This document shows positions 5,417 to 26,225 of a stretch of 26,225 nucleotides of DNA, piece by piece. The notes beneath the pieces were generated by a model. That model worked only from the letters and a program-made list of their open reading frames with translations. It had not been told where the DNA came from and made no database searches. The DNA comes from a virus (lineage: Duplodnaviria; Heunggongvirae; Uroviricota; Caudoviricetes): IMG/VR virus record IMGVR_UViG_638341087_000002. The stretch is one strand, 5' to 3'. Positions within the stretch are counted from its first letter, which is position 1. Each line of letters begins with the position of its first letter. Position numbers and translations under genes: made by a program.

Positions 5417-6057
5417 TTTTCGGAATACCTCTCCCGTTTACTCAGTTGTTCAGGCAGATGGTGAAGCAGTTCACCGTTGCCGCAGTAAATGGCAGCATGG
5501 TTGGGTACCGATGCGCCAAAGCAGCACAGCAGGATATCGCCTGCCTGTGCCGAGGACAGGGGCACCCGGTAAAAACCAGTGGCCTCCATATTGTCCAGGT
5601 AAAGGTTCTGACCGTTGCGCCACCAGTCATCCTCACGCTCAAAATCCGGCATATCAATTCCCGCCAGATGGTATGCATCCCGGAACAGCGTGTAACAGTC
5701 CGTCACCCCGTGCTCAAAGCGCCGTCCTGTCAGATGTGGCACACAGCGGAATTTATGAATGTCCCCCCGGCAGACCAGCCACCAGGNCAGTGCNCTTTTT
5801 ATCTGCAGCCGCCGGTCNGCCTCGCTCAGCCAGGGCAGNCCACCGGGATGACTGTGGACCAGTGCCACAATCTCCCCCTGCATCTCTGCCCGCAGCCAGT
5901 CTTCCGGTGCAATACGAAAATACGCCTCCGGCTCTGCAGAGATATTCACACANGGNANATACCGCTCCCCCTCCGGCGTTCTCACCACGAAGCCGCACGA
6001 CTCCGCAGGCACACACCGCCGGGTGTGTGCCAGAATCACTGATTCTGTCTGTGTCAT
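5314..6057 (-). CDS. K: Tail assembly protein K (NlpC/P60 plus JAB/MPN-type domains); contains ambiguous bases
   Basis: 247-aa ORF MTQTESVILAHTRRC...IVALVHSHPG...HGVTDCYTLFRDAYHLAGI... matching lambda K; overlaps the 5' end of I as in lambda. Seven N bases (5787-5958) give X residues. Confidence 0.85.
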   Translation of the reverse strand: MTQTESVILAHTRRCVPAESCGFVVRTPEGERYXXCVNISAEPEAYFRIAPEDWLRAEMQGEIVALVHSHPGXLPWLSEXDRRLQIKXALXWWLVCRGDIHKFRCVPHLTGRRFEHGVTDCYTLFRDAYHLAGIDMPDFEREDDWWRNGQNLYLDNMEATGFYRVPLSSAQAGDILLCCFGASVPNHAAIYCGNGELLHHLPEQLSKRERYSEKWQRRTHSVWRHRHWSASAFTGIYNDLVAASACM

Positions 6058-16503: not shown

Positions 16504-16739
16504 TAAAACCTCGCCAGTTTAAATCCCGGTTTTCCCCGCCTGCGGCTCACCATCGCGGCAAGCCTGCGTTCCCACTCCTGACGTCCGGCGCGGATCTGAG
16601 AAAGGCTTTCCAGCGTCAGTTGCTGCCCGTTGAAGGTGACAGACTTTCCCTCCAGTACGGCCATTTCCGCTTCACGGTACCGCTGTATCATTTCTCTGGC
16701 TTCTTCTGTGCTCACAACCAGCCTCCTGATGTTATCCAT
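16503..16739 (-). CDS. Head-tail joining protein, gpW-like
   Basis: 78-aa ORF between terminase large subunit and portal, the position of lambda W; C-terminus RRRGKPGFKLARF resembles lambda gpW RRRGPAGFYV. Confidence 0.7.
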   Translation of the reverse strand: MDNIRRLVVSTEEAREMIQRYREAEMAVLEGKSVTFNGQQLTLESLSQIRAGRQEWERRLAAMVSRRRGKPGFKLARF

Positions 16740-18835
16740 GGATTATCTTCCGCACGCTCCGTCCGCAGTTTTTTCTTCCGGCGACGGCGTTTTTCTGCCC
16801 CGGCCGTCAGTTCCGGGGATACCGTTTCACCAGAACGCTCCTGCGGGAAGACGAGCCACGTTTCCCGCTGTGCCCAGTCCGGTGCGGAGGGCCAGCGGAT
16901 CTTTTCGTAACCATGCAGAACGGCAAGCGCATCCGCATAAACCAGCAGGTCAAACGCTTCGTTAGCGCCCCTGCCCGGTTTTCGCCATTTTCCGTCACTG
17001 CCGCGCTCTTCATAGGTCAGCTCATCGTAAAACCACCGCCCCAGCCAGTCGGGAAAGTGGATATAGTTCGGCCCTGGTGTGTCACGCCACAGGGCATTAT
17101 TTACACGGTCCTTAAACGCATCCGTCTGAACCAGCCACAGCGCGACATCGCCACTGGCTCTGGCACGGCGGGCACTTCTGCCGGTATTATCCGGGAAGGT
17201 TCGGTTAATCAGCCTGTCACGGCGAAGTCCATCCCCCTTGAACAGAAACACCCTGTTGCCCAGTCCGTCACTCCGGCAACGACGCCAGAAACGATAGGCG
17301 TTATCTGTCACCCCGGCTTCCCCTCCCGTATCCACCGCCATGGCCATCAGACGCATGCGCACATCCGGATCAGAAGCCAGCGGCCATGTTTTATGGAACA
17401 CATCCGTCAGCAACAAATCCCAGTCCTCCGGATATGCCGCCGGATCAACCGGCAGACTTTCACCGTTGGGACTGCATCGCAGTGAATGCCGGATGTTGTA
17501 GCGATCAACAATCCAGCGTTCCCCCTGCTCTCCGTATCCGGTGATCTGCACAACAAAACGGCGATTTTTACCGCCCTGTACGTCAACCGTTGCCTCAATA
17601 AAACGCACACCATCCGGCACAGATCGCCGGGGAAACGGCTCGGCACGCTGTTCAAGCAGTTCACTTTTACGCTGTTCCGTGGCTGAACGGGGCAGATAGG
17701 GTCGTCCGATATCGGTGTTCACCACCGCTTTCAGGGTCTCTTCACTGCCGGTTCGCTCATACTCTTCTTCTGCCGCCAGCAGTTTAAAAATCAGTTGTTC
17801 CCAGGTCTGAAACGCCGCAGCCGGCCCCTCCATCCAAAATGACGCAATCCGGGAGTTTCGTGGCGTTCCGGTGATACTGCCGTCCGCCGCCGCCCGTTCA
17901 CCTTCACGAAGCCAGATCCCCTGGTTATTCAGTTCGCGTTTCTGCTCAGGGGCAATCAGCCCGCGACAATGCGGACACATCAGACGGGCAGCCTGACCGG
18001 CAGCCACAAAATCCGGGTTATTCCGGTATCCGGTCATGTTATCCATCACCGGCTGAAAATATTCCCCGCAGTGCGGACACGGCCAGTACCACCGGCGGCG
18101 GTCTCCCCGGTTATACAGTGACAGGATACCCGTTGTTGGCGGTGCCTCATGTGCGCCACCACAACGCCATTTGGTATCGGTGATATCCCGCCCCGGTGAA
18201 CTCTCGACCAGGGTCATCCCCGAGGACATAAAGGTGGTGGTACGCTTTGAGGCCAGCGTGAAGGCATCCCCTTCCCCGTCCACGTTTTCAGGGAAACGGT
18301 CATAATCCGTCAGCGCCACACGACGGTAATCCGAAGAGGAAAAGACGGTGATCGACGGCCAGCCAATCTTCAGGAAGGAGCCGTCAAGAAACATTTTATC
18401 GTGGACGTTGTTGTCATTACGGGAAGGACTGAGGCGCTTGCTGACCTCCGGACTGTGGCGAAACGTCCTGGAAAGACGCGTTCTGGAATGCTCACGCGCC
18501 TTCGTCTCAGTCATCTGCACCACCAGCATATCCGCCGGATCACAGATGATGCCGTACACAATCCAGCCATCAATCAGCCCTTCGGTTTTCCCGGTTCGCG
18601 CAGGTCCCACAAACACCACCGCGTCATATTCACGGGCTGATAATGTATTAATGGGGTCAATCATATAGGGCGTCAGCGATGACTCCCACGGACCGGAAGT
18701 ATTGGCTCCCCGTGGAACCCGCATATAACGCCTGATGGCTTCCGCTACTGGTAACCGGCTGGGTGGGCGAAACAGCGAGGCCACTTCGCGCCAGATATCG
18801 GATGCGCGGCTATGGCTCTCGTTCACCTGATTCAC
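16712..18835 (-). CDS. Terminase large subunit (lambda gpA family)
   Basis: 707-aa ORF with Walker A-like VFVGPARTGKT and Cys motif CPHCGEYFQP resembling lambda A CPHCGEEQYL; overlaps the small subunit gene by 4 nt. Confidence 0.9.
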   Translation of the reverse strand: MNQVNESHSRASDIWREVASLFRPPSRLPVAEAIRRYMRVPRGANTSGPWESSLTPYMIDPINTLSAREYDAVVFVGPARTGKTEGLIDGWIVYGIICDPADMLVVQMTETKAREHSRTRLSRTFRHSPEVSKRLSPSRNDNNVHDKMFLDGSFLKIGWPSITVFSSSDYRRVALTDYDRFPENVDGEGDAFTLASKRTTTFMSSGMTLVESSPGRDITDTKWRCGGAHEAPPTTGILSLYNRGDRRRWYWPCPHCGEYFQPVMDNMTGYRNNPDFVAAGQAARLMCPHCRGLIAPEQKRELNNQGIWLREGERAAADGSITGTPRNSRIASFWMEGPAAAFQTWEQLIFKLLAAEEEYERTGSEETLKAVVNTDIGRPYLPRSATEQRKSELLEQRAEPFPRRSVPDGVRFIEATVDVQGGKNRRFVVQITGYGEQGERWIVDRYNIRHSLRCSPNGESLPVDPAAYPEDWDLLLTDVFHKTWPLASDPDVRMRLMAMAVDTGGEAGVTDNAYRFWRRCRSDGLGNRVFLFKGDGLRRDRLINRTFPDNTGRSARRARASGDVALWLVQTDAFKDRVNNALWRDTPGPNYIHFPDWLGRWFYDELTYEERGSDGKWRKPGRGANEAFDLLVYADALAVLHGYEKIRWPSAPDWAQRETWLVFPQERSGETVSPELTAGAEKRRRRKKKLRTERAEDNPWITSGGWL

Positions 18836-19308
18836 ATATCGGCCTCATCACAACAGTCAATGACTGCCTTTTCCAGTGTGTCGCGGATCTCATCAACCAC
18901 AATCTGTACTTCATTCAGTTGTGATGCGGTCCACCCCCTGTCCCTTTCCAGCCGGTCAGGCCAGGTTTCCAGTACCTGAACTATCGCTTTCACCACGACA
19001 GAAAAGGACCGCCTGACATCACTGACTGGCACAAGCTGACCAGTTTCCTGCTCAAATTTCAGTCGGTCACGTTCTGACTGGTACCATGCTTTACGCGCAT
19101 GAGGATCCATTTCCTTGTTATCTACAGGCAGAGGAGCTTTCATCAGCTCGGCAAGGATATCTGTCAGTCGGTACAGTTTGAGATTGCTCTCATGACCACC
19201 GGCTGGGCTTATGTTTTTTACCCGAGCCGCAACAGTCTGTCGATGAGCACCGGATAATGCGGCCAGTTGGGAAATATTCAGATGCAGATTTTTTAATTCA
19301 CGATCCAT
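18832..19308 (-). CDS. Terminase small subunit (DNA-binding, N-terminal HTH)
   Basis: 158-aa ORF immediately upstream of and overlapping terL; N-terminal HTH-like segment (LNISQLAALSGAHRQTVAARV); adjacent to an AT-rich region and a GC-rich cosN-like element. Confidence 0.8.
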   Translation of the reverse strand: MDRELKNLHLNISQLAALSGAHRQTVAARVKNISPAGGHESNLKLYRLTDILAELMKAPLPVDNKEMDPHARKAWYQSERDRLKFEQETGQLVPVSDVRRSFSVVVKAIVQVLETWPDRLERDRGWTASQLNEVQIVVDEIRDTLEKAVIDCCDEADM

Positions 19309-19475
19309 AACTTCCCCTGAAAATTATGTAAATACACGCCAGTGATGAACAAAAAACAATCAACTTCGACACTAAAAAATTTTATTATGATATATATCAA
19401 TGATTTACACTGGTGGTGATGGTGCCATAAAAATCAAAAAATGCGCCTTTTTCCGCGCCGCCCGCCCCGTGTTCA
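19309..19475. other. Candidate cos region (cosB AT-rich segment plus cosN-like GC-rich core)
   Basis: AT-rich 130 bp with A-tracts next to the terS start, then GC-rich CGCGCCGCCCGCCCC (about 19451-19468), which shares the core CGCCGCCC with the lambda cohesive-end sequence GGGCGGCGACCT (complement). Positional analogy to lambda cos-Nu1. Confidence 0.4.
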
Positions 19476-19726
19476 GGCCCACCACACCAGGAGGACCCGA
19501 AAAATGATAATGGTTATCATTTGTAATGTAGTCCGGTTTCTTCCACCATCGCACCGGACCAGCGACTATGAGGGGACAACGCCGCGCTCCGTTAACGCGG
19601 TAAACCCCGGTGTGTATCGTTTTTGATTATCCCCGCACACTCGCGCAGAGGAGTCTCCCTGTCGGGCTGCGGTCTCTGTTAATACGGGAATACGGCGACA
19701 ATACCGCGCATGGATAATAAGGTCGC

Positions 19727-19951
19727 TCAACACACTGGCTGTAATGCAGCGGATACCATGCGGCATTTAGCGGCATTCATCGTACACTCCACGGTTAGCT
19801 CTTCATTCGTGGCATTCACCCGAAAGGTCCGGGAGTGTAATTGCGTACATTTACCACTGAACGAACCTTCAACAAGAACACGACCACGCTGCAAAATACG
19901 GAACGGAATTGTTCCCTGAAAAGGCTTTACGGTTACCAGTAATTTCTTCAT
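19727..19951 (-). CDS. Hypothetical 74-aa protein between Rz and cos
   Basis: ATG at 19949-19951 preceded by GGAG SD; MKKLLVTVKPFQGTIPFRILQRGRVLVEGSFSGKCTQLHSRTFRVNATNEELTVECTMNAAKCRMVSAALQPVC; not recognisable as bor or any family I know. Confidence 0.45.
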   Translation of the reverse strand: MKKLLVTVKPFQGTIPFRILQRGRVLVEGSFSGKCTQLHSRTFRVNATNEELTVECTMNAAKCRMVSAALQPVC

Positions 19952-19974
19952 GCATTCTCCGGATAACAAAAATA

Positions 19975-20442
19975 CTAGTTAATACACTGAGTGCGGATAT
20001 ATTCCTGCGCCCCTTCCAGCTGCTTCTGCATCATCATCAACCGTTCTCTGAGGATGAAATAATCCCGTTCAGCGGTGTCTGCCAGTCGGGGGCCGGTTGC
20101 ATTATCCACGCCGGAGGTGCCGGTGGCTTCACGCACGGTACCGTGGCAGGTGGCGTTGATCCGCAGGCGCTTACGACCAGCGGCAACATCAGCACGCAGA
20201 GTTTCATTTTCAGCTCTCGCATCGGCTAATTCCTTCGAGTATTTTGCATCGAGCGCAGCAACATCACGCTGACGCACCTGCATGTCAGTAATGGTGGCAT
20301 TCGCCTGTTCCAGCTCTCTGGCTTTTTTATCGCGCTGCGCTTTGTAGGTGATGGCGTTATCGCGGTAATGATTAACAGCCCATAACAGACAGACGATGAT
20401 GCAGATAACCAGAGCGTAAATAATCGCGGTTACTCTTCTCAC
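19975..20442 (-). CDS. Rz: Spanin, inner-membrane subunit Rz (i-spanin)
   Basis: Strong similarity to lambda Rz ([38 protein letters not shown]...[15 protein letters not shown]). Start set at the GTG at 20440-20442, which overlaps the endolysin stop codon (GTGA); the track's TTG at 20460 is an alternative. Confidence 0.85.
20037..20222 (-). CDS. Rz1: Spanin, outer-membrane lipoprotein subunit Rz1 (o-spanin), embedded in Rz in the +1 frame
   Basis: 61-aa [64 protein letters not shown] with lipobox LVVSAC and a proline-rich mature part; close match to lambda Rz1. Confidence 0.85.
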
Positions 20443-20972
20443 TGATCTATCCCCCAACAAGCTAATGCGCTTTCCTGGTCACGACGAATAACCTGTCCGT
20501 AGCAGTTATTTGAACGTGTGCGGCAATCACGCCCACCGTCCTTAATCCACCAGCGAATCGCCTCACACGCCCCCCTGCGATCGCCTGCATTAATTCGTTT
20601 ATAAAACGTCGACGGGAAACACTTACCTGGGCCAATGTTGTAAGGACAGAATGACGCAATACCCGCTTTCTGGGGTTCAGTCAGTGGCACTTTGATGTTT
20701 TTCTCCACCCATGCCAGCGCCTTATCACGCTCAATGGCGTTAACCTGGTCGCATTTCCCCTTCGACAGCTTCATGCCAGGAATAACAGGCTTACCATCCA
20801 CCCGGGTGGCTCCACGGCAGATGGTCCAGATACCCGCACCATCACGGTATGCCGTGGTGTGGTTGCCTTCCTTTTCATCCAGAAACTGGTCGAGGATTTC
20901 AGGCGCAGAAGCACCTGCGGCAATCAGCGCCAGAACGGCAGCCGATAAACCATAGCGGAGTTTCCTGCTCAT
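20439..20972 (-). CDS. R: SAR endolysin (T4-lysozyme family, glycoside hydrolase family 24) with N-terminal signal-anchor-release domain
   Basis: 177 aa; weakly hydrophobic Gly/Ala-rich N-terminus ([17 protein letters not shown]) followed by an E-x8-D-x5-T catalytic triad ([16 protein letters not shown]), as in the phage 21 and 933W endolysins. Confidence 0.85.
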
Positions 20973-20976
20973 CAGC

Positions 20977-21192
20977 TTACTCTCCCCGTGCCGCCTTACG
21001 CCTGTCCTCTCTGATTTTGAAATACAGGTTCGTCAGGTACGTCAGCAGACCAAACAGCAGACTCCCCAGCACGCCTATTGCCGCCCACTGAGACGGGGAA
21101 ACCCTGTCCAGCAACTGCAGGAACCAGTAGCCCGTTCCCACCGCTGACGTGGTGTATGACACACCTGTTGTGATTTTTTCCATCTGGTACAT
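20977..21192 (-). CDS. S: Class II holin (pinholin, S21-like) with dual start motif
   Basis: 71 aa [71 protein letters not shown]; essentially the S21/933W holin as I remember it; Met1 and Met4 suggest antiholin/holin dual starts; GGGAG SD upstream. Confidence 0.9.
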
Positions 21193-21896: not shown

Positions 21897-23843
21897 TCAT
21901 GCCGCAGTGTCTGTGCTGTTCACTTCCACCGCAATGCTGTCTATCAGTACCGGGTAAGTCGCACCTCTGGTAATGTCTGTCACATGCAGTTTATCCGCCG
22001 CAAAGGCACTGACCGGTGACTGCGTCAGCGTGAACGGTGTGCCATCCTGACCATCAATAACCGGCGTCACCTGCAGGCTGTTATTCCCGGCAAAGCGGAA
22101 AGCCAGCGTATGCCATTCGTTATCAAATGCGCCAAAGGTTCCCAGTTTCAGGTTGTTTGTCGCCACTTTCGCATTGTGGTACATCACATTCAGGTCTTTT
22201 GCATCTGTCTGGATGTAGAACGCTGCCAGCAGGTTATTCCCCCCGTCTCCGGTCAGGGCAACGCCCTGTGGCAGTGAAGATACCGGCCAGTAAAACGCCA
22301 TAACATACTGGTTCGCAGCCAGCNCTCCCGAAACCTTAAAGCGGCAGCGAATCTGCCCCCCTTTCTGTAACAGAGCCGCACCGTTGCCCGCGGCGTACTC
22401 CAGCACCCAGCTGCTTTTACCGGCTTCCTTGGTCAGCTTCACTGCCTTACCTCCGGTTCCCTCCGCATCGCTGACCACTTCTGCCCTGCCGCCACTGGCT
22501 GACCATCCCTGTACTTTCAGGCTTCCCTCTGACTCGCTGGCAAGGTAAGAGAGCAGTGTTGTGACGCCTGTGGCTTCTGCACCGGAAGGCGATGACGGGC
22601 GCACCTCTGATACTGTCGATGATGCCCCCGCGTTTAGCGCCACTCTTCCCGCATGGCGCAAAATCGCCGTTGCCAGACGGTCGGAAATAATCCCGCGGCG
22701 AGCCCATGAACTGAAATGGCTCGCCCTGTCCTGTGACGTCCAGGTGGCTGAGCTGTCACGCCATTTCGAACCGTAATATCCGATACCCGGAATGTCCGGG
22801 TCTTCTTCCGGTTTGTTCGTCGGCACATTCACCCCGTTCTCATCCGTCATGAACGGTACGAAATGGATATTCTTTTCCGTTTTGTTTTTGTAGCTGCCGT
22901 ACACCGTCTGGTACGTGGATTCGTTCTTCTGCTTCCAGAAATACGTCGTATCTCCACATATCCAGGGAACACCGCCAGCAGAGCCNCCGACGCACTGACC
23001 TGCCATATCCGCCAGGTCTGCACGGAATTTATCAACCAGCGCACCAAACTGTGCTGCGTGATTTACCGGCGTACCGCCAAAATCAAATTCCCCCTGCATC
23101 CACNCCACGGCAAACAGCACATTTTTCGGGTTCTTCTTCAGTGCTGCTTTTGTTCGACCGATAAGGTCCTTATACAGCGGCTTGTCCACACCCCAGCGGG
23201 TTGAATTCTCCGAGGCACCACTCGCGTCACTGTATGTGCCATCAGCTCCGGTGGTGAACGCTGAACCACCACGACAGCACGGAACCAGCAGAATGCCCGC
23301 ATTCGCCGGTATAAACGGCAGCAGTTTTTTGGCGATATGCAGCCCCTGCCCCACGGTTCCGTACTGCCCCTTTGACAGGTCCGCTTTCGGATGGTTAAGG
23401 CGGCTCATGTCCTGCACATCATGCAGACAATGGTCCGCCGGAATGATGTCGTTATATTTACAGGCGACACCGCCCGGTGTCACCGTACTGCGACGCGCCA
23501 GCTGCTTAATGCGCAGGTCCGGACGGTCATATGTCTCCGGCAGCGGAAGGCCTTCACCATATGCCATGCTGTTTGACTGCCCCGCCAGAACCACAACAAA
23601 GTAATACTCCGGGTCTCTGGTGGCGCTGATTACTGTGCCTTCTCCATCCGACGGCTTCACCACAACAGGTGTGCTCACATCACCTTCTGCGACAATCGCC
23701 TGAATAAGTGCTGCGCCATCATCCGTATACGAAGAAAACGGCCCGCCGTATGGTTGCCATCCTTCACGAATTTTTTGAGCAAGTGCATCAGCAAGGTCTG
23801 ACGGCGACACCGCCCTGACCACATCATAATGTTTAATCGACAT
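21897..23843 (-). CDS. nanS-p: Prophage sialate O-acetylesterase NanS-p-like (SGNH/SASA hydrolase core with N- and C-terminal accessory domains); contains ambiguous bases
   Basis: 648-aa ORF; GQSN-type motif (VLAGQSNSMAYGEG) characteristic of sialate O-acetylesterases; size and location (between the tRNA/toxin locus and the holin) match the yjhS/nanS homologue of Stx phages. Three N bases (22325, 22986, 23104). Confidence 0.8.
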   Translation of the reverse strand: MSIKHYDVVRAVSPSDLADALAQKIREGWQPYGGPFSSYTDDGAALIQAIVAEGDVSTPVVVKPSDGEGTVISATRDPEYYFVVVLAGQSNSMAYGEGLPLPETYDRPDLRIKQLARRSTVTPGGVACKYNDIIPADHCLHDVQDMSRLNHPKADLSKGQYGTVGQGLHIAKKLLPFIPANAGILLVPCCRGGSAFTTGADGTYSDASGASENSTRWGVDKPLYKDLIGRTKAALKKNPKNVLFAVXWMQGEFDFGGTPVNHAAQFGALVDKFRADLADMAGQCVXGSAGGVPWICGDTTYFWKQKNESTYQTVYGSYKNKTEKNIHFVPFMTDENGVNVPTNKPEEDPDIPGIGYYGSKWRDSSATWTSQDRASHFSSWARRGIISDRLATAILRHAGRVALNAGASSTVSEVRPSSPSGAEATGVTTLLSYLASESEGSLKVQGWSASGGRAEVVSDAEGTGGKAVKLTKEAGKSSWVLEYAAGNGAALLQKGGQIRCRFKVSGXLAANQYVMAFYWPVSSLPQGVALTGDGGNNLLAAFYIQTDAKDLNVMYHNAKVATNNLKLGTFGAFDNEWHTLAFRFAGNNSLQVTPVIDGQDGTPFTLTQSPVSAFAADKLHVTDITRGATYPVLIDSIAVEVNSTDTAA

Positions 23844-23919
23844 CGAATTTCTCCCGTGTAGAGGAACAGAGTTAAAAAGCCGGAAGCGGAATCAAATCAC
23901 AGGATGACCATCTGCCAGT

Positions 23920-23948
23920 GGCTGGTCGTAAAAAAAAGGCCGCGCCAT
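23920..23948 (-). terminator. Candidate intrinsic terminator upstream of nanS-p
   Basis: Minus strand GGCUGCGC-AUG-GCGCGGCC (one G-U wobble) followed by a U8 tract; about 80 nt upstream of the nanS-p start. Confidence 0.5.
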
Positions 23949-24157
23949 GCGCAGCCGAAAATAAAGGGATAACGATGATAGTTTGAGAAAAACAGAAATA
24001 ACACTTTTGTGGCAAAGCATGGTGCCGGGTGCCTCCCGGTGAATTCAGTATCAGCACCTGAATCCGCGATTACCCCATATTCCTTCTTGCTGATTGCCCC
24101 ACCGCACAGGGGGATTCACCATGCAGAAGTGTTTTTAATAAACAGCAAACAAAAAAA

Positions 24158-24325
24158 TCAAGCATTATGCAGGCTGTTTCTTTTTATCACCGGCCACAGC
24201 AATACCATAATGCCGCAGACCAGCACCCCATCCGCCAGCACCGACATGATTCTGCTGGTGAAATCCACCATCACCACCAGAAACAGCAGGAGTGCAGCCA
24301 CAGCCAGGCGCAGTTTTACCGTCAC
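24158..24325 (-). CDS. Hypothetical 55-aa two-TM small membrane protein, start codon overlapping the TerB-like stop
   Basis: GTG at 24323-24325 overlaps the TerB-like stop (GTGA) with GGAG 8 nt upstream; VTVKLRLAVAALLLFLVVMVDFTSRIMSVLADGVLVCGIMVLLWPVIKRNSLHNA has two hydrophobic segments. Not in the supplied track in this frame. Confidence 0.3.
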   Translation of the reverse strand: MTVKLRLAVAALLLFLVVMVDFTSRIMSVLADGVLVCGIMVLLWPVIKRNSLHNA

Positions 24326-24753
24326 AGGTGATTCTCCAGACGAAGACCCAGAACACCGGCAATCTCTTCCAGCACCTTGCGCTCTTCCGGCTCAATTTCG
24401 CCGTCTGCCTCCGCAATGGCCACCGCCACATCCAGCACATCTTCCGCTTCACGCGTATCGTGTTTCACATCCTCAATCTCGCGTAACGCGGCACGACGAC
24501 CAATTTTAAAATTGGTATCCAGCTGACCGATAATAGTTGCGCTAATCGCATTAATTTCCGAGGTAAACGCAGACAACGCAGGCTGATTACGTAAGACCTG
24601 TTCGATCTTCGCTTTCTCGGATGCCTCGCATTCACCATCTGCATAGGCCACCAGGTATGCAGCGTTAATCACCGCCTGTGCCAGATCGCGTTTCTCAAAC
24701 TTTTTAATTTCCGCTGCCGCTCTGCGGGTTTTCTTTTTGAAGATTCCAAACAT
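24322..24753 (-). CDS. TerB-like domain protein (tellurite-resistance TerB family fold), 143 aa
   Basis: ATG at 24751-24753 with AGGAA SD (track ORF starts at an upstream GTG). Two repeats of the TerB-type motif: AYADGECEASEKAKIEQVL and AEADGEIEPEERKVLEEIAGVLGL. Confidence 0.55.
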   Translation of the reverse strand: MFGIFKKKTRRAAAEIKKFEKRDLAQAVINAAYLVAYADGECEASEKAKIEQVLRNQPALSAFTSEINAISATIIGQLDTNFKIGRRAALREIEDVKHDTREAEDVLDVAVAIAEADGEIEPEERKVLEEIAGVLGLRLENHL

Positions 24754-24884
24754 CGTGACGTTCCTTTGGGTGGGTGAGCCAACGCCCGGGAGCGATCTGC
24801 CCACAGAGAAAGTCACACTGACCACTCCGTAAGCTCACCCCCGAAAGGCTCTGTGGTTGATATGCGCCGGGCGTGGCGCAGATA

Positions 24885-24909
24885 CAAAAAAGGCCCGCCG
24901 AAGCGAGCC
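24885..24909 (-). terminator. Intrinsic terminator downstream of the tRNA cluster
   Basis: Minus strand GGCUCGC-UUCG-GCGGGCC (UUCG tetraloop, one G-U pair) followed by UUUUUUG, about 14 nt after the last tRNA. Confidence 0.6.
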
Positions 24910-24922
24910 TGGAAAATAAGTG

Positions 24923-24999
24923 TGGCGCGTTGTAGTGGAGTCGAACCACTGACCGATTGCTTAGAAGGCAATTGCTCTGTCCGACTGAGCTAACAACGC
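24923..24999 (-). tRNA. argN: tRNA-Arg (anticodon UCU, reads AGA/AGG)
   Basis: Hand-folded cloverleaf: acceptor GCGTTGT/ACAACGC, D-arm GCTC..GAGC, anticodon stem ATTGC/GCAAT with loop CTTCTAA, T-arm AGTGG-TTCGACT-CCACT, discriminator G, encoded CCA. Confidence 0.8.
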
Positions 25000-25012
25000 A
25001 TGATGCTGATAA

Positions 25013-25089
25013 TGGACCGCCATCGGGGACTTGAACCCCGCGCAGCCAGCTTCGAAGGCTGGCGCTCTGTCCCGATGAGCTAATGGCGG
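25013..25089 (-). tRNA. argO: tRNA-Arg (anticodon UCG, reads CGA/CGG); atypical C1:G72 and U73
   Basis: Hand-folded cloverleaf: acceptor CCGCCAT/ATGGCGG, D-arm GCTC..GAGC, anticodon stem CCAGC/GCTGG with loop CTTCGAA, T-arm CGGGG-TTCAAGT-CCCCG, encoded CCA. Gene symbol assigned by position only. Confidence 0.65.
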
Positions 25090-25098
25090 TATGTGATA

Positions 25099-25174
25099 TG
25101 GTGGCCCTTGCTGGATTTGAACCAGCGACCTGGCGATTATGAGTCGCTCGCTCTCACCACTGAGCTAAAGGGCC
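25099..25174 (-). tRNA. ileZ: tRNA-Ile2 (anticodon CAU, lysidine-type, reads AUA)
   Basis: 76 nt GGCCCTTTAGCTCAGTGGTGAGAGCGAGCGACTCATAATCGCCAGGTCGCTGGTTCAAATCCAGCAAGGGCCACCA; near-identical to E. coli ileX/ileY as remembered; anticodon loop CTCATAA. Confidence 0.85.
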
Positions 25175-25202
25175 GAGCCAAAAAATAATAATCAGATGAA
25201 AA

Positions 25203-25916
25203 TCAATAATCAAGCCCTTGCCTGGATACATATCTGTCTGGCGGGAAGCCATAATAGCGGTGAAATACAGAAATAAAGTAGGACCTGCTTGAATAACCGC
25301 ATTTTTCTGCTATAGCCTGTCCATATCCATGCCGGGAACATAACATATTTACAGCAACACGCATCCGCTCTTCCAGCAACAAGCGACTGAACATGCCCCC
25401 TTCATTTTTCAGTTTTGTCTTTAACAAACTCTCACTCATATGCAACTGTAGAGCAATCGCACCAAGCGTCCAGCTTGCTGATATATCTGTCTGAATTATC
25501 GCCCTGACTTTGGCACTTATGCTGGATAAACATCCACTTAAAAACAATGACATCCGTTCATCTGTTTCAAACAGAGACAGGCAGGCCATCATAAGAAACA
25601 TATCCGTGGCCTCTCCGGAAAATCCCTGGCTGGTAATTAAAGCCGCAGCCAACGCAGGATTGTTGGGTTCCAGCAACAGGTAAAGCGGAATGTCAGTCAG
25701 ACGAGTCCTCGTCAGCTTATGCTGACTTTCCAGATATTGACTTACGACGGATTCGCTTATATCGACAATTTTAACTTTGCCATAATGCATAAGGAAAAGC
25801 TCCCTGATGCATTTGGTGGCCAGAACGACTGAGCCTGGCTTAAGTGACAACGTATCCTTTTCAAGAAAAATATTAATTGGGGAGCAAACCATGATAACTG
25901 AACAGACAACAGCCAT
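25203..25916 (-). CDS. AraC/XylS-family transcriptional regulator (prophage cargo gene)
   Basis: 237-aa ORF with C-terminal AraC-type double HTH (WTLGAIALQLHMSESLLKTKLKNEGGMFSRLL.EERMRVAVNMLCSRHGYGQAIAEKCGYSSRSYFISVFHRYYGFPPDRY). Start uncertain (Met1 at 25916 or Met9 at 25892; neither has a strong SD). Confidence 0.8.
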   Translation of the reverse strand: MAVVCSVIMVCSPINIFLEKDTLSLKPGSVVLATKCIRELFLMHYGKVKIVDISESVVSQYLESQHKLTRTRLTDIPLYLLLEPNNPALAAALITSQGFSGEATDMFLMMACLSLFETDERMSLFLSGCLSSISAKVRAIIQTDISASWTLGAIALQLHMSESLLKTKLKNEGGMFSRLLLEERMRVAVNMLCSRHGYGQAIAEKCGYSSRSYFISVFHRYYGFPPDRYVSRQGLDY

Positions 25917-25945
25917 TATAATTTTACTTTCATTAGCAATTGGTT

Positions 25946-25990
25946 AGCTCAATTATAGCCCCAAAAGGTAAATTATCATCAACACATAAG
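25946..25990 (-). promoter_or_regulatory. Candidate sigma70 promoter upstream of the AraC-like gene (possible late-promoter equivalent)
   Basis: Perfect -10 TATAAT on the minus strand (plus 25952-25957) 36 nt upstream of the AraC-like ATG; weak -35 candidates (TTGATG/TGATGA) 17-19 nt upstream. Confidence 0.35.
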
Positions 25991-26035
25991 CAAAGGACTG
26001 ACAGGTGTCGCCCCCCCCACCAGCCGCCCATTCAC

Positions 26036-26065
26036 CACAAATAAAAAGCCTTCAGGACTGAAGGC
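26036..26065 (-). terminator. Hairpin plus U-tract overlapping the stop codon of the Q-like ORF
   Basis: Minus strand GCCUUCAG-UC-CUGAAGGC (stop codon inside) followed by UUUUUAUUU. Confidence 0.45.
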
Positions 26066-26225
26066 GTCTGTAACAACCGCACTGATAGTCTGCCAGACCC
26101 GCCATAACAAGCTGGGTCAGTATTAACTGGCAGCGTTCGCGTGAAAGGTAAGTATTCTGCGCAACCTCCCCGACTGTCGCCGGTTCGGTAACGCTTAATT
26201 CATTAAACACCACTCTGGCGGTTTC
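26052..26225 (-). CDS. Probable late-gene antiterminator Q, C-terminal 57 codons (5' part outside the window)
   Basis: Open frame to the window edge ending ...SVTEPATVGEVAQNTYLSRERCQLILTQLVMAGLADYQCGCYRRLQS; assignment rests mainly on position (upstream of the tRNA cluster and lysis genes) and Cys-rich C-terminus; I do not recognise the sequence confidently. Confidence 0.35.
   Translation of the reverse strand, partial: ETARVVFNELSVTEPATVGEVAQNTYLSRERCQLILTQLVMAGLADYQCGCYRRLQS

What the first reader, a model, noticed from the sequence alone, without database searches (positions are those of the whole stretch)
19727..19951. Unrecognised 74-aa gene in the slot where lambda carries bor
Directly after Rz/Rz1 and before cos, lambda has the lipoprotein gene bor on the opposite strand. 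Here a same-strand 74-aa ORF with a good SD (GGAG) and four cysteines (MKKLLVTVKPF...) occupies the position. It has no lipobox and no similarity I can recognise, so it is a candidate cargo gene of unknown function.
Basis: seen in the sequence. Interest (0 to 1): 0.4.

Follow-up and report, generated by a model that had tools for sequence, protein, structure and literature searches.

The report
Small conserved phage gene after Rz
The 74-codon reading frame after the phage lysis genes is a real, widely conserved prophage gene for a small beta-sheet protein of unknown function; databases already list it as "hypothetical protein", so it is an ordinary accessory phage gene rather than a surprise.

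The parts
19727..19951 (-). 74-aa CDS (including the TGA stop). It is a stand-alone member of PHROG 2571 and is predicted to be a small soluble beta-sandwich protein.
   Evidence: Translation. phrog_2571 E 7.6e-28. 66 homologues at 56-99% identity. dN/dS 0.23-0.57. AF2 pLDDT 90.9.
19957..19960 (-). Shine-Dalgarno GGAG, 5 nt upstream of the ATG.
   Evidence: Read from the sequence. The GGAG/GGGG is conserved in homologous loci (alignment A5).
19712..19974 (-). Approximate extent of the optional single-gene cassette (spacer, SD, ORF and about 15 bp). It is absent from otherwise collinear phages Stx2_499 and 1720a-02.
   Evidence: Alignment A6. In those phages the Rz stop is followed directly by sequence homologous to window positions from about 19711 downward.
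19975..20460 (-). Rz (i-spanin), the upstream cistron. The RefSeq equivalent starts at about 20442. An embedded Rz1-type ORF lies at 20037-20222.
   Evidence: Pfam Phage_lysis E 1.4e-50 and phrog_13. ORF list. The RefSeq annotation of the near-identical locus is 'lysis protein'. The Rz1 lipobox was read by eye only.
19405..19711 (.). Conserved non-coding stretch downstream of the gene, before the terminase small subunit. It forms the distal boundary of the cassette and is also present in phages that lack the gene.
   Evidence: megablast and alignments. No Rfam hit and no unusual RNA fold, z -0.24.

Best explanation
This is a genuine but uncharacterised accessory phage gene. It encodes an 8-kDa soluble cytoplasmic protein that folds as a compact six-stranded beta-sandwich and is a stand-alone copy of the PHROG 2571 domain. 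The gene is an optional cassette of about 260 bp, inserted between the Rz stop codon and a conserved non-coding stretch ahead of the terminase genes. I found no promoter of its own, so I infer that it is transcribed as the last cistron of the lysis cassette on the Q-antiterminated late transcript. It is translated from its own GGAG here, and by ATGA stop/start coupling to Rz in other alleles. On this reading the protein is made late in lytic growth, not in the lysogen, and it is dispensable for the basic lytic cycle. Its most likely mode of action is as a small binding module for a protein or glycan that modulates a late-stage phage-host interaction. Shown here: the gene is real, is under purifying selection, has this fold class, is optional, and lacks detectable own signals. 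Inferred: the timing of expression. Speculative: what it binds.
For: Coding status: this is the only frame open in all nine homologues, dN/dS is 0.23-0.57, synonymous changes are in excess (p 3e-4 to 0.05), and the control frames show nothing. Length and start are conserved down to about 60% identity. Fold: AF2 mean pLDDT 90.9 and pTM 0.77, with six strands and one short helix. Solubility: no hydrophobic segment. Optional cassette: there is a clean presence/absence difference against Stx2_499 and 1720a-02, and GC is 47% against 53-55% in the lysis genes. Operon membership: the gene is on the same strand as Rz, 23 nt after it, and no sigma-70-like promoter or terminator-like site lies between Rz and the ORF on that strand. 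In L002, L012, L013 and L014 the annotated Rz CDS ends 4 nt inside the ORF. Adjacency to Rz holds in all 29 full-length sampled rows drawn from 1181 E. coli genomes. It also holds with different terminase types: DUF1441, Nu1, and HNH plus TerS. Family: 47 representatives in a 1.8-billion-protein library, mostly stand-alone proteins of 70-80 aa.
Confidence: 0.55

Rival explanations
1. It is a lysogenic-conversion moron like bor: a cargo gene expressed from the prophage to benefit the host.
For: It is optional between close relatives. Its GC is slightly lower than that of the neighbouring lysis genes. It occupies a slot known to tolerate extra genes. Family members move between several accessory slots: after Rz, between Q and the holin, and after tail genes.
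Against: No promoter-like or terminator-like site flanks it on its strand. It is co-oriented with the late operon, and in several alleles it overlaps the Rz stop codon. It has no export signal, whereas known conversion factors of this slot such as Bor are envelope lipoproteins (own knowledge).
Confidence: 0.15
2. It is a dedicated lysis accessory factor that works with the spanin or holin, for example by tuning lysis timing or envelope disruption.
Against: Phages with about 88-98% identical Rz lack it. It accompanies very different Rz alleles, down to 32% identity in L008. It has no membrane or periplasmic targeting, while spanins act in the periplasm. In L021 and L022 it follows the tail tube gene and DUF6246, far from lysis genes.
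Confidence: 0.15
3. It is a decaying remnant (pseudogene fragment) of a larger PHROG 2571 gene such as the 198-280-aa proteins of N15-like phages.
For: It matches only positions 100-172 of the 291-position PHROG profile. The Ravinvirus YDC107_1 homologue has 198 aa, with a coiled-coil N-terminal half.
Against: Most family representatives are themselves stand-alone proteins of 70-80 aa that start at the same MK..L.V motif. The start codon and SD are conserved. The gene is under purifying selection. The 74 residues form a complete, confidently predicted domain.
Confidence: 0.05
4. It is a free-standing copy of a tail-tip (TipJ FNIII-A-like) domain that associates with the virion as a decoration or adhesion module.
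Confidence: 0.07

Closest known systems
PHROG 2571 (phage protein family of unknown function), including the 198-280-aa proteins of N15-like Ravinvirus prophages such as YDC107_1 AUO37497.1
   Same: There is a significant profile match (E 7.6e-28) across the whole 74 aa. The motifs are shared: MK.L.V..., F.V.Q.G..L.E, SGK, Y.V.A. The Ravinvirus gene also lies between Rz and the terminase genes, after an intervening DUF4406 gene.
   Different: The window protein is only the central beta-sandwich domain. It lacks the coiled-coil N-terminal half and the C-terminal extension of the long forms. No member has a known function.
Lambda bor (serum-resistance lipoprotein gene in the Rz-cos slot)
   Same: Both are optional extra genes in the same genomic slot, between Rz and the packaging genes.
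   Different: Bor is on the opposite strand, has its own promoter, is expressed in lysogens, and is an outer-membrane lipoprotein with a signal peptide and lipobox (own knowledge). This gene is on the late-operon strand, shows no promoter, signal peptide or lipobox, and has no sequence similarity.
Morons of lambdoid phages (Juhala et al. 2000, as cited in PMC4104026)
   Same: It is present in some close relatives and absent in others with clean boundaries, has slightly deviant GC, and occupies known insertion-tolerant slots.
   Different: Classic morons carry their own promoter and terminator. Neither was found here, and some alleles overlap the Rz stop.
XepA / YomS, soluble beta-sandwich proteins of the Bacillus PBSX and SPbeta lytic cassettes (PMC6834076)
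   Different: There is no detectable sequence relationship. XepA and YomS are pentamers from Gram-positive phages. The oligomeric state here is unknown, and the similarity is no better than to many unrelated beta-sandwiches.
Carbohydrate-binding modules and lectins (CBM6/35/36, LecB, PNGase F domains) and the TipJ FNIII-A domain
   Different: Foldseek finds nothing below E 0.09 in PDB or BFVD. There is no sequence signal above a reversed-sequence control. No sugar- or calcium-binding motif could be assessed.

Membership tests
PHROG 2571 | Significant match to the family profile HMM | tested here: met
   E 7.6e-28, residues 1-73 on profile positions 100-172 of 291. Distant stand-alone and fused relatives hit the same profile segment.
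Bor (lambda Bor lipoprotein) | Signal peptide with lipobox cysteine | tested here: not met
   No hydrophobic N-terminal segment (maximum KD over 15 residues is 0.8). In the AF2 model the N-terminus is a beta-strand of the fold.
Bor (lambda Bor lipoprotein) | Sequence match to the Bor family, and orientation opposite to the late operon | tested here: not met
   No Pfam family matches the ORF or any other ORF of the gap on either strand at E up to 1, apart from one irrelevant weak hit. The gene is on the late-operon strand.
Moron (Juhala-type) | Present in one phage and absent in close relatives, with clean boundaries | tested here: met
   Alignment against Stx2_499 and 1720a-02.
Moron (Juhala-type) | Own promoter upstream and own terminator downstream | tested here: not met
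   The consensus scan of 19200-20600 finds no promoter-like site on the minus strand. The only terminator-like hairpin lies inside the ORF, within chance expectation. This is a weak test, being consensus only.
Moron (Juhala-type) | Base composition different from the neighbours | tested here: inconclusive
   GC is 47.1% against 52.7-54.6% for Rz, R and S. However, the adjacent non-coding stretch (47.8%) and TerS (49.5%) are similar.
Spanin (Rz/Rz1) | N-terminal membrane anchor (Rz) or lipobox (Rz1), and a match to the Phage_lysis family | tested here: not met
   No Pfam hit and no hydrophobic segment. The genuine Rz and Rz1 lie upstream at 19975-20460.
TipJ FNIII-A domain (PF24801) | Profile match above the gathering threshold, or profile-profile homology | tested here: inconclusive
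Known anti-phage defence proteins (PADLOC) | Match to any PADLOC model | tested here: not met
   No hits for the ORF or four relatives. One irrelevant weak hit (E 0.006) falls in a fused C-terminal tail.
XepA/YomS | Pentameric assembly and cytotoxic/lytic activity | not testable with these tools

The most novel reading that the evidence does not exclude
The PHROG 2571 beta-sandwich may be the recognition subunit of a new small mobile phage effector cassette that hops between late-region accessory slots of temperate enterobacterial phages. It would act alone, as here, or with its frequent ~70-aa partner (PHROG 4280). Possible roles are a counter-defence or decoy protein that binds a host sensor of late phage proteins, or a lectin-like factor released at lysis.
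Probability: 0.1. Interest if true: 0.6.

Novelty: already known. Interest (0 to 1): 0.2.

Why it matters
The gene family occurs in about a fifth of complete E. coli genomes, often in several copies, and in Stx-converting phages. Even so, it has no Pfam family, no solved structure and no assigned role. Its main value is as a well-defined target for a knockout or interaction study: it has clean cassette boundaries, natural plus and minus phage pairs, a confident fold model and a recurrent partner gene. Nothing found here points to new biology. It does show that the slot where lambda carries bor is filled in these phages by a different, late-operon accessory gene.

Tried and rejected
- Pfam, NCBIfam and PADLOC scans of the ORF and relatives gave nothing.
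- A PDB sequence profile search gave only noise, E at least 0.28.
- The large multi-repeat proteins among the distant profile hits (cystatin, HYR_4C and TQ repeats) are other known repeat domains. I take these matches to be spurious beta-strand similarity.
- Homology to the TipJ FNIII-A domain was rejected as unproven, because a reversed-sequence control scores the same.
- A structured RNA or sRNA in or after the ORF was not supported. There is no Rfam hit and the fold z-score is -0.24. The prophage anti-sRNAs known from EHEC lie at the PR' moron site, not here (PMC4104026).
- The terminator-like hairpin inside the ORF (19915-19900) is within chance expectation and does not covary.
- A full-text search for the sequence, accessions and PHROG id found no paper.
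- Degenerate-pattern locus searches failed with the wide alignments, and two single-protein scans found nothing.
- No phage record ends at the putative cos site, so cos could not be confirmed.
- The nucleic-acid-binding idea, prompted by pI 9.9, was dropped because distant family members are acidic (by eye).

Full report
**Observation**

The window's late region runs on the minus strand. In order it carries:
- a P21-type holin (20977-21192);
- a lysozyme (20439-20972);
- Rz (19975-20460), with an embedded Rz1-type ORF (20037-20222);
- the 74-codon ORF (19951→19727);
- a 418-bp gap;
- a DUF1441-type small terminase subunit (18832-19308) and the large subunit (16712-18835).

It starts at an ATG preceded by GGAG with 5-nt spacing, and it begins 23 nt after the Rz stop. 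No bor-like product is encoded on either strand of the gap. 'Same strand' means the strand of the lysis genes, which is the window's minus strand.

**Is it a gene?**

ORFs of this size are common by chance here, so the case rests on comparison.
- A search of 5.8 billion proteins returned 66 relatives at 56-99% identity. Most full-length ones have 74 aa (some 68-79), from E. coli and Salmonella, and all are labelled hypothetical.
- In nine homologous loci this is the only one of six frames that stays open.
- Pairwise Nei-Gojobori dN/dS for diverged pairs is 0.23-0.57. Synonymous changes make up 33-48% of differences against 23-24% expected (binomial p 3e-4 to 0.05). The two shifted frames show no excess.
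- Both halves of the gene have pN below pS. The first 35 codons are more conserved at both kinds of site.
- AlphaFold2 on a 22-sequence alignment gives a compact all-beta domain: six strands and one short helix, mean pLDDT 90.9, pTM 0.77.

It is a real protein-coding gene under moderate purifying selection.

**Is it unrecognised?**

No. The exact sequence is in NCBI as 'hypothetical protein', for example EDV80566.1. RefSeq annotates a protein that differs at 1 of 74 residues, WP_000735655.1, in a near-identical late region. A 291-bp probe finds the locus in 1187 of 5426 complete E. coli genomes, at 1-6 places per genome. Every one of the 29 full-length sampled rows shows 'hypothetical protein | lysis protein' under the match. 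It belongs to PHROG 2571, function unknown (E 7.6e-28). There is no Pfam, NCBIfam or PADLOC match. No paper in the searchable library mentions the sequence, its accessions or the PHROG.

**Anatomy of the family**

The ORF matches only positions 100-172 of the 291-position PHROG profile. The long form occurs in N15-like Ravinvirus prophages: 198 aa in YDC107_1 and 280 aa in P0076. It has a coiled-coil N-terminal half, and its gene also lies between Rz and the terminase genes, after an intervening DUF4406 gene.

A profile search of 1.84 billion representatives found 47 proteins. Most are stand-alone proteins of 70-80 aa that begin with the same MK.L.V motif and share F.V.Q.G..L.E, SGK and Y.V.A motifs. 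A few carry C-terminal tails or other fusions. The multi-repeat giants among the weak hits carry cystatin, HYR_4C or TQ repeats. I take these to be spurious beta-strand matches.

C35 and C56 are conserved only among close relatives, and none is conserved across the wider family.

**Fold comparison**

Three of 27 family members also gave weak Pfam hits to the gpJ FNIII-A domain (best E 0.02), so I tested that link. hhalign of the family against a 58-sequence FNIII-A profile, built from the window's own J protein and its relatives, gave score 18.7, P 0.011 and probability 3.9%. This is above all 200 column-shuffled controls, but the reversed alignment scores 19.0. The signal is therefore generic strand periodicity, and homology to TipJ is not established.

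**Genomic behaviour**

Stx2_499 and 1720a-02 have a collinear S-R-Rz-DUF1441 terminase arrangement (1720a-02 also carries an inserted cat marker) but lack the gene. In both, the Rz stop is followed directly by DNA homologous to window positions from about 19711 downward. The gene is thus a clean optional cassette of about 260 bp. Its GC (47%) is a little below that of the lysis genes (53-55%) but close to the adjacent non-coding DNA.

A consensus scan finds no promoter-like site on its strand between 19200 and 20600. The only terminator-like hairpin lies inside the ORF, within chance expectation. In alleles with the 495-nt Rz (L002, L012, L013, L014) the annotated Rz CDS ends 4 nt inside the ORF, the classic ATGA coupling arrangement.

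The gene follows Rz whatever the terminase type (DUF1441, Nu1, or HNH plus TerS) and whatever the Rz allele, down to 32% identity. More distant members occupy several slots:
- after Rz (L015, L016, L024) or after an Rz remnant (L017);
- between the Q-like antiterminator and the holin (L018, L023);
- after a tail tube gene and DUF6246 (L021, L022).

In L005-L009 and L021-L023 the gene is followed by a ~70-aa PHROG 4280 gene, also of unknown function. The window has no trace of this partner. In L018 the next gene is YdfR/DUF1327-like. P0068 fuses the domain to the C-terminal part of PHROG 2091.

**Interpretation**

The best-supported reading is a late-operon accessory gene. It would be transcribed by read-through from the lysis cassette on the Q-antiterminated late transcript and translated from its own SD, or coupled to Rz in other alleles. 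It yields a small soluble beta-sandwich that is dispensable for the core lytic cycle.
- Shown: the gene is real, optional, of this fold class, and lacks detectable signals of its own.
- Inferred: late timing.
- Speculative: that it acts as a protein- or glycan-binding module.

The rivals are less well supported:
- A bor-like lysogen-expressed moron is weakened by the missing promoter, the orientation and the overlap with Rz.
- A dedicated spanin or holin accessory is weakened by the gene's absence from phages with nearly the same Rz, by the lack of envelope targeting, and by its occurrence far from lysis genes in some phages.
- A pseudogene fragment is contradicted by selection, by the conserved start, and by the predominance of stand-alone forms.
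- A TipJ-derived virion module rests only on signals that fail the reversed control.

**Comparison with known systems and verdict**

This is a member of a catalogued but uncharacterised phage family (PHROG 2571), sitting in the slot that lambda uses for bor but unrelated to bor in sequence, orientation, targeting and probable timing. It resembles a moron in being optional and mobile between slots, but lacks the moron's own promoter and terminator. The XepA/YomS proteins of Bacillus lysis cassettes (PMC6834076) are an analogy of context and fold class only.

Interest is low. It would rise only if experiments reveal a defined partner or phenotype.

Noticed in passing
window 23850-26225: The window has no stx genes, although its late region is nearly identical to that of Stx2 prophages. 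The slot between three tRNA genes and the nanS-p-like esterase (21897-23843) holds a 167-aa ORF (24322-24825, minus strand) that looks TerB-like by eye. The tRNAs are Arg-tct 24923-24999, Arg-tcg 25013-25089 and a CAT-anticodon tRNA 25099-25174. Upstream lies a 237-aa ORF (25203-25916, minus strand) with an AraC-type C-terminus by eye. In strain 2013C-4991 the same slot carries stx2 A and B.
   Followed up: partly
window 19405-19711: A non-coding stretch of about 300 bp is conserved at 90-95% in several Stx phages, whether or not they carry the 74-aa gene. Its sub-part 19532-19711 also occurs in phages with a different (HNH plus TerS) packaging module. There it is more conserved than the adjacent ORF, as a module-boundary or recombination linker sequence would be. 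There is no Rfam hit and no unusual RNA fold.
   Followed up: partly
window ~19457-19475 (minus strand): A G/C-rich motif, CACGGGGCGGGCGGCGCGG, followed by an A/T-rich run resembles the lambda cosN region from memory. The lambda pattern was not found with up to 3 mismatches, and no phage record ends here, so cos is unconfirmed.
   Followed up: partly
window 19566-19766 (minus strand): A 66-aa ORF overlaps the 3' end of the 74-aa gene and hits PHROG 6954, labelled 'Rz-like spanin' (E 6.8e-14). It lies in the conserved non-coding stretch, and its start is missing in phages that lack the 74-aa gene. This is probably a family of miscalled ORFs with a misleading label.
   Followed up: no
L005-L009, L021-L023 (for example L008 4265-4471): A ~70-aa gene of PHROG 4280 recurs immediately downstream of the PHROG 2571 gene. 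Its consensus is MFVE.GLKADPDN.GWVLGW.VVR..PWHL.GVYAT...YGSHR.GSDDF. The pairing occurs in E. coli, Salmonella and IMG/VR viral contigs and in three different genomic slots, which suggests a two-gene cassette. The partner is absent from this window.
   Followed up: partly
window 5787-5958 and 22324, 22986, 23104: There are ten ambiguous bases (N) in the window. Three fall in the esterase gene and produce X residues in its translation.
   Followed up: no
window 19727-19951, codons 1-35 versus 36-74: The 5' half of the gene is more conserved than the 3' half at synonymous as well as non-synonymous sites (pS 0.21-0.34 against 0.37-0.68). This may reflect a recombination breakpoint inside the gene or an extra constraint on the 5' half.
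   Followed up: no
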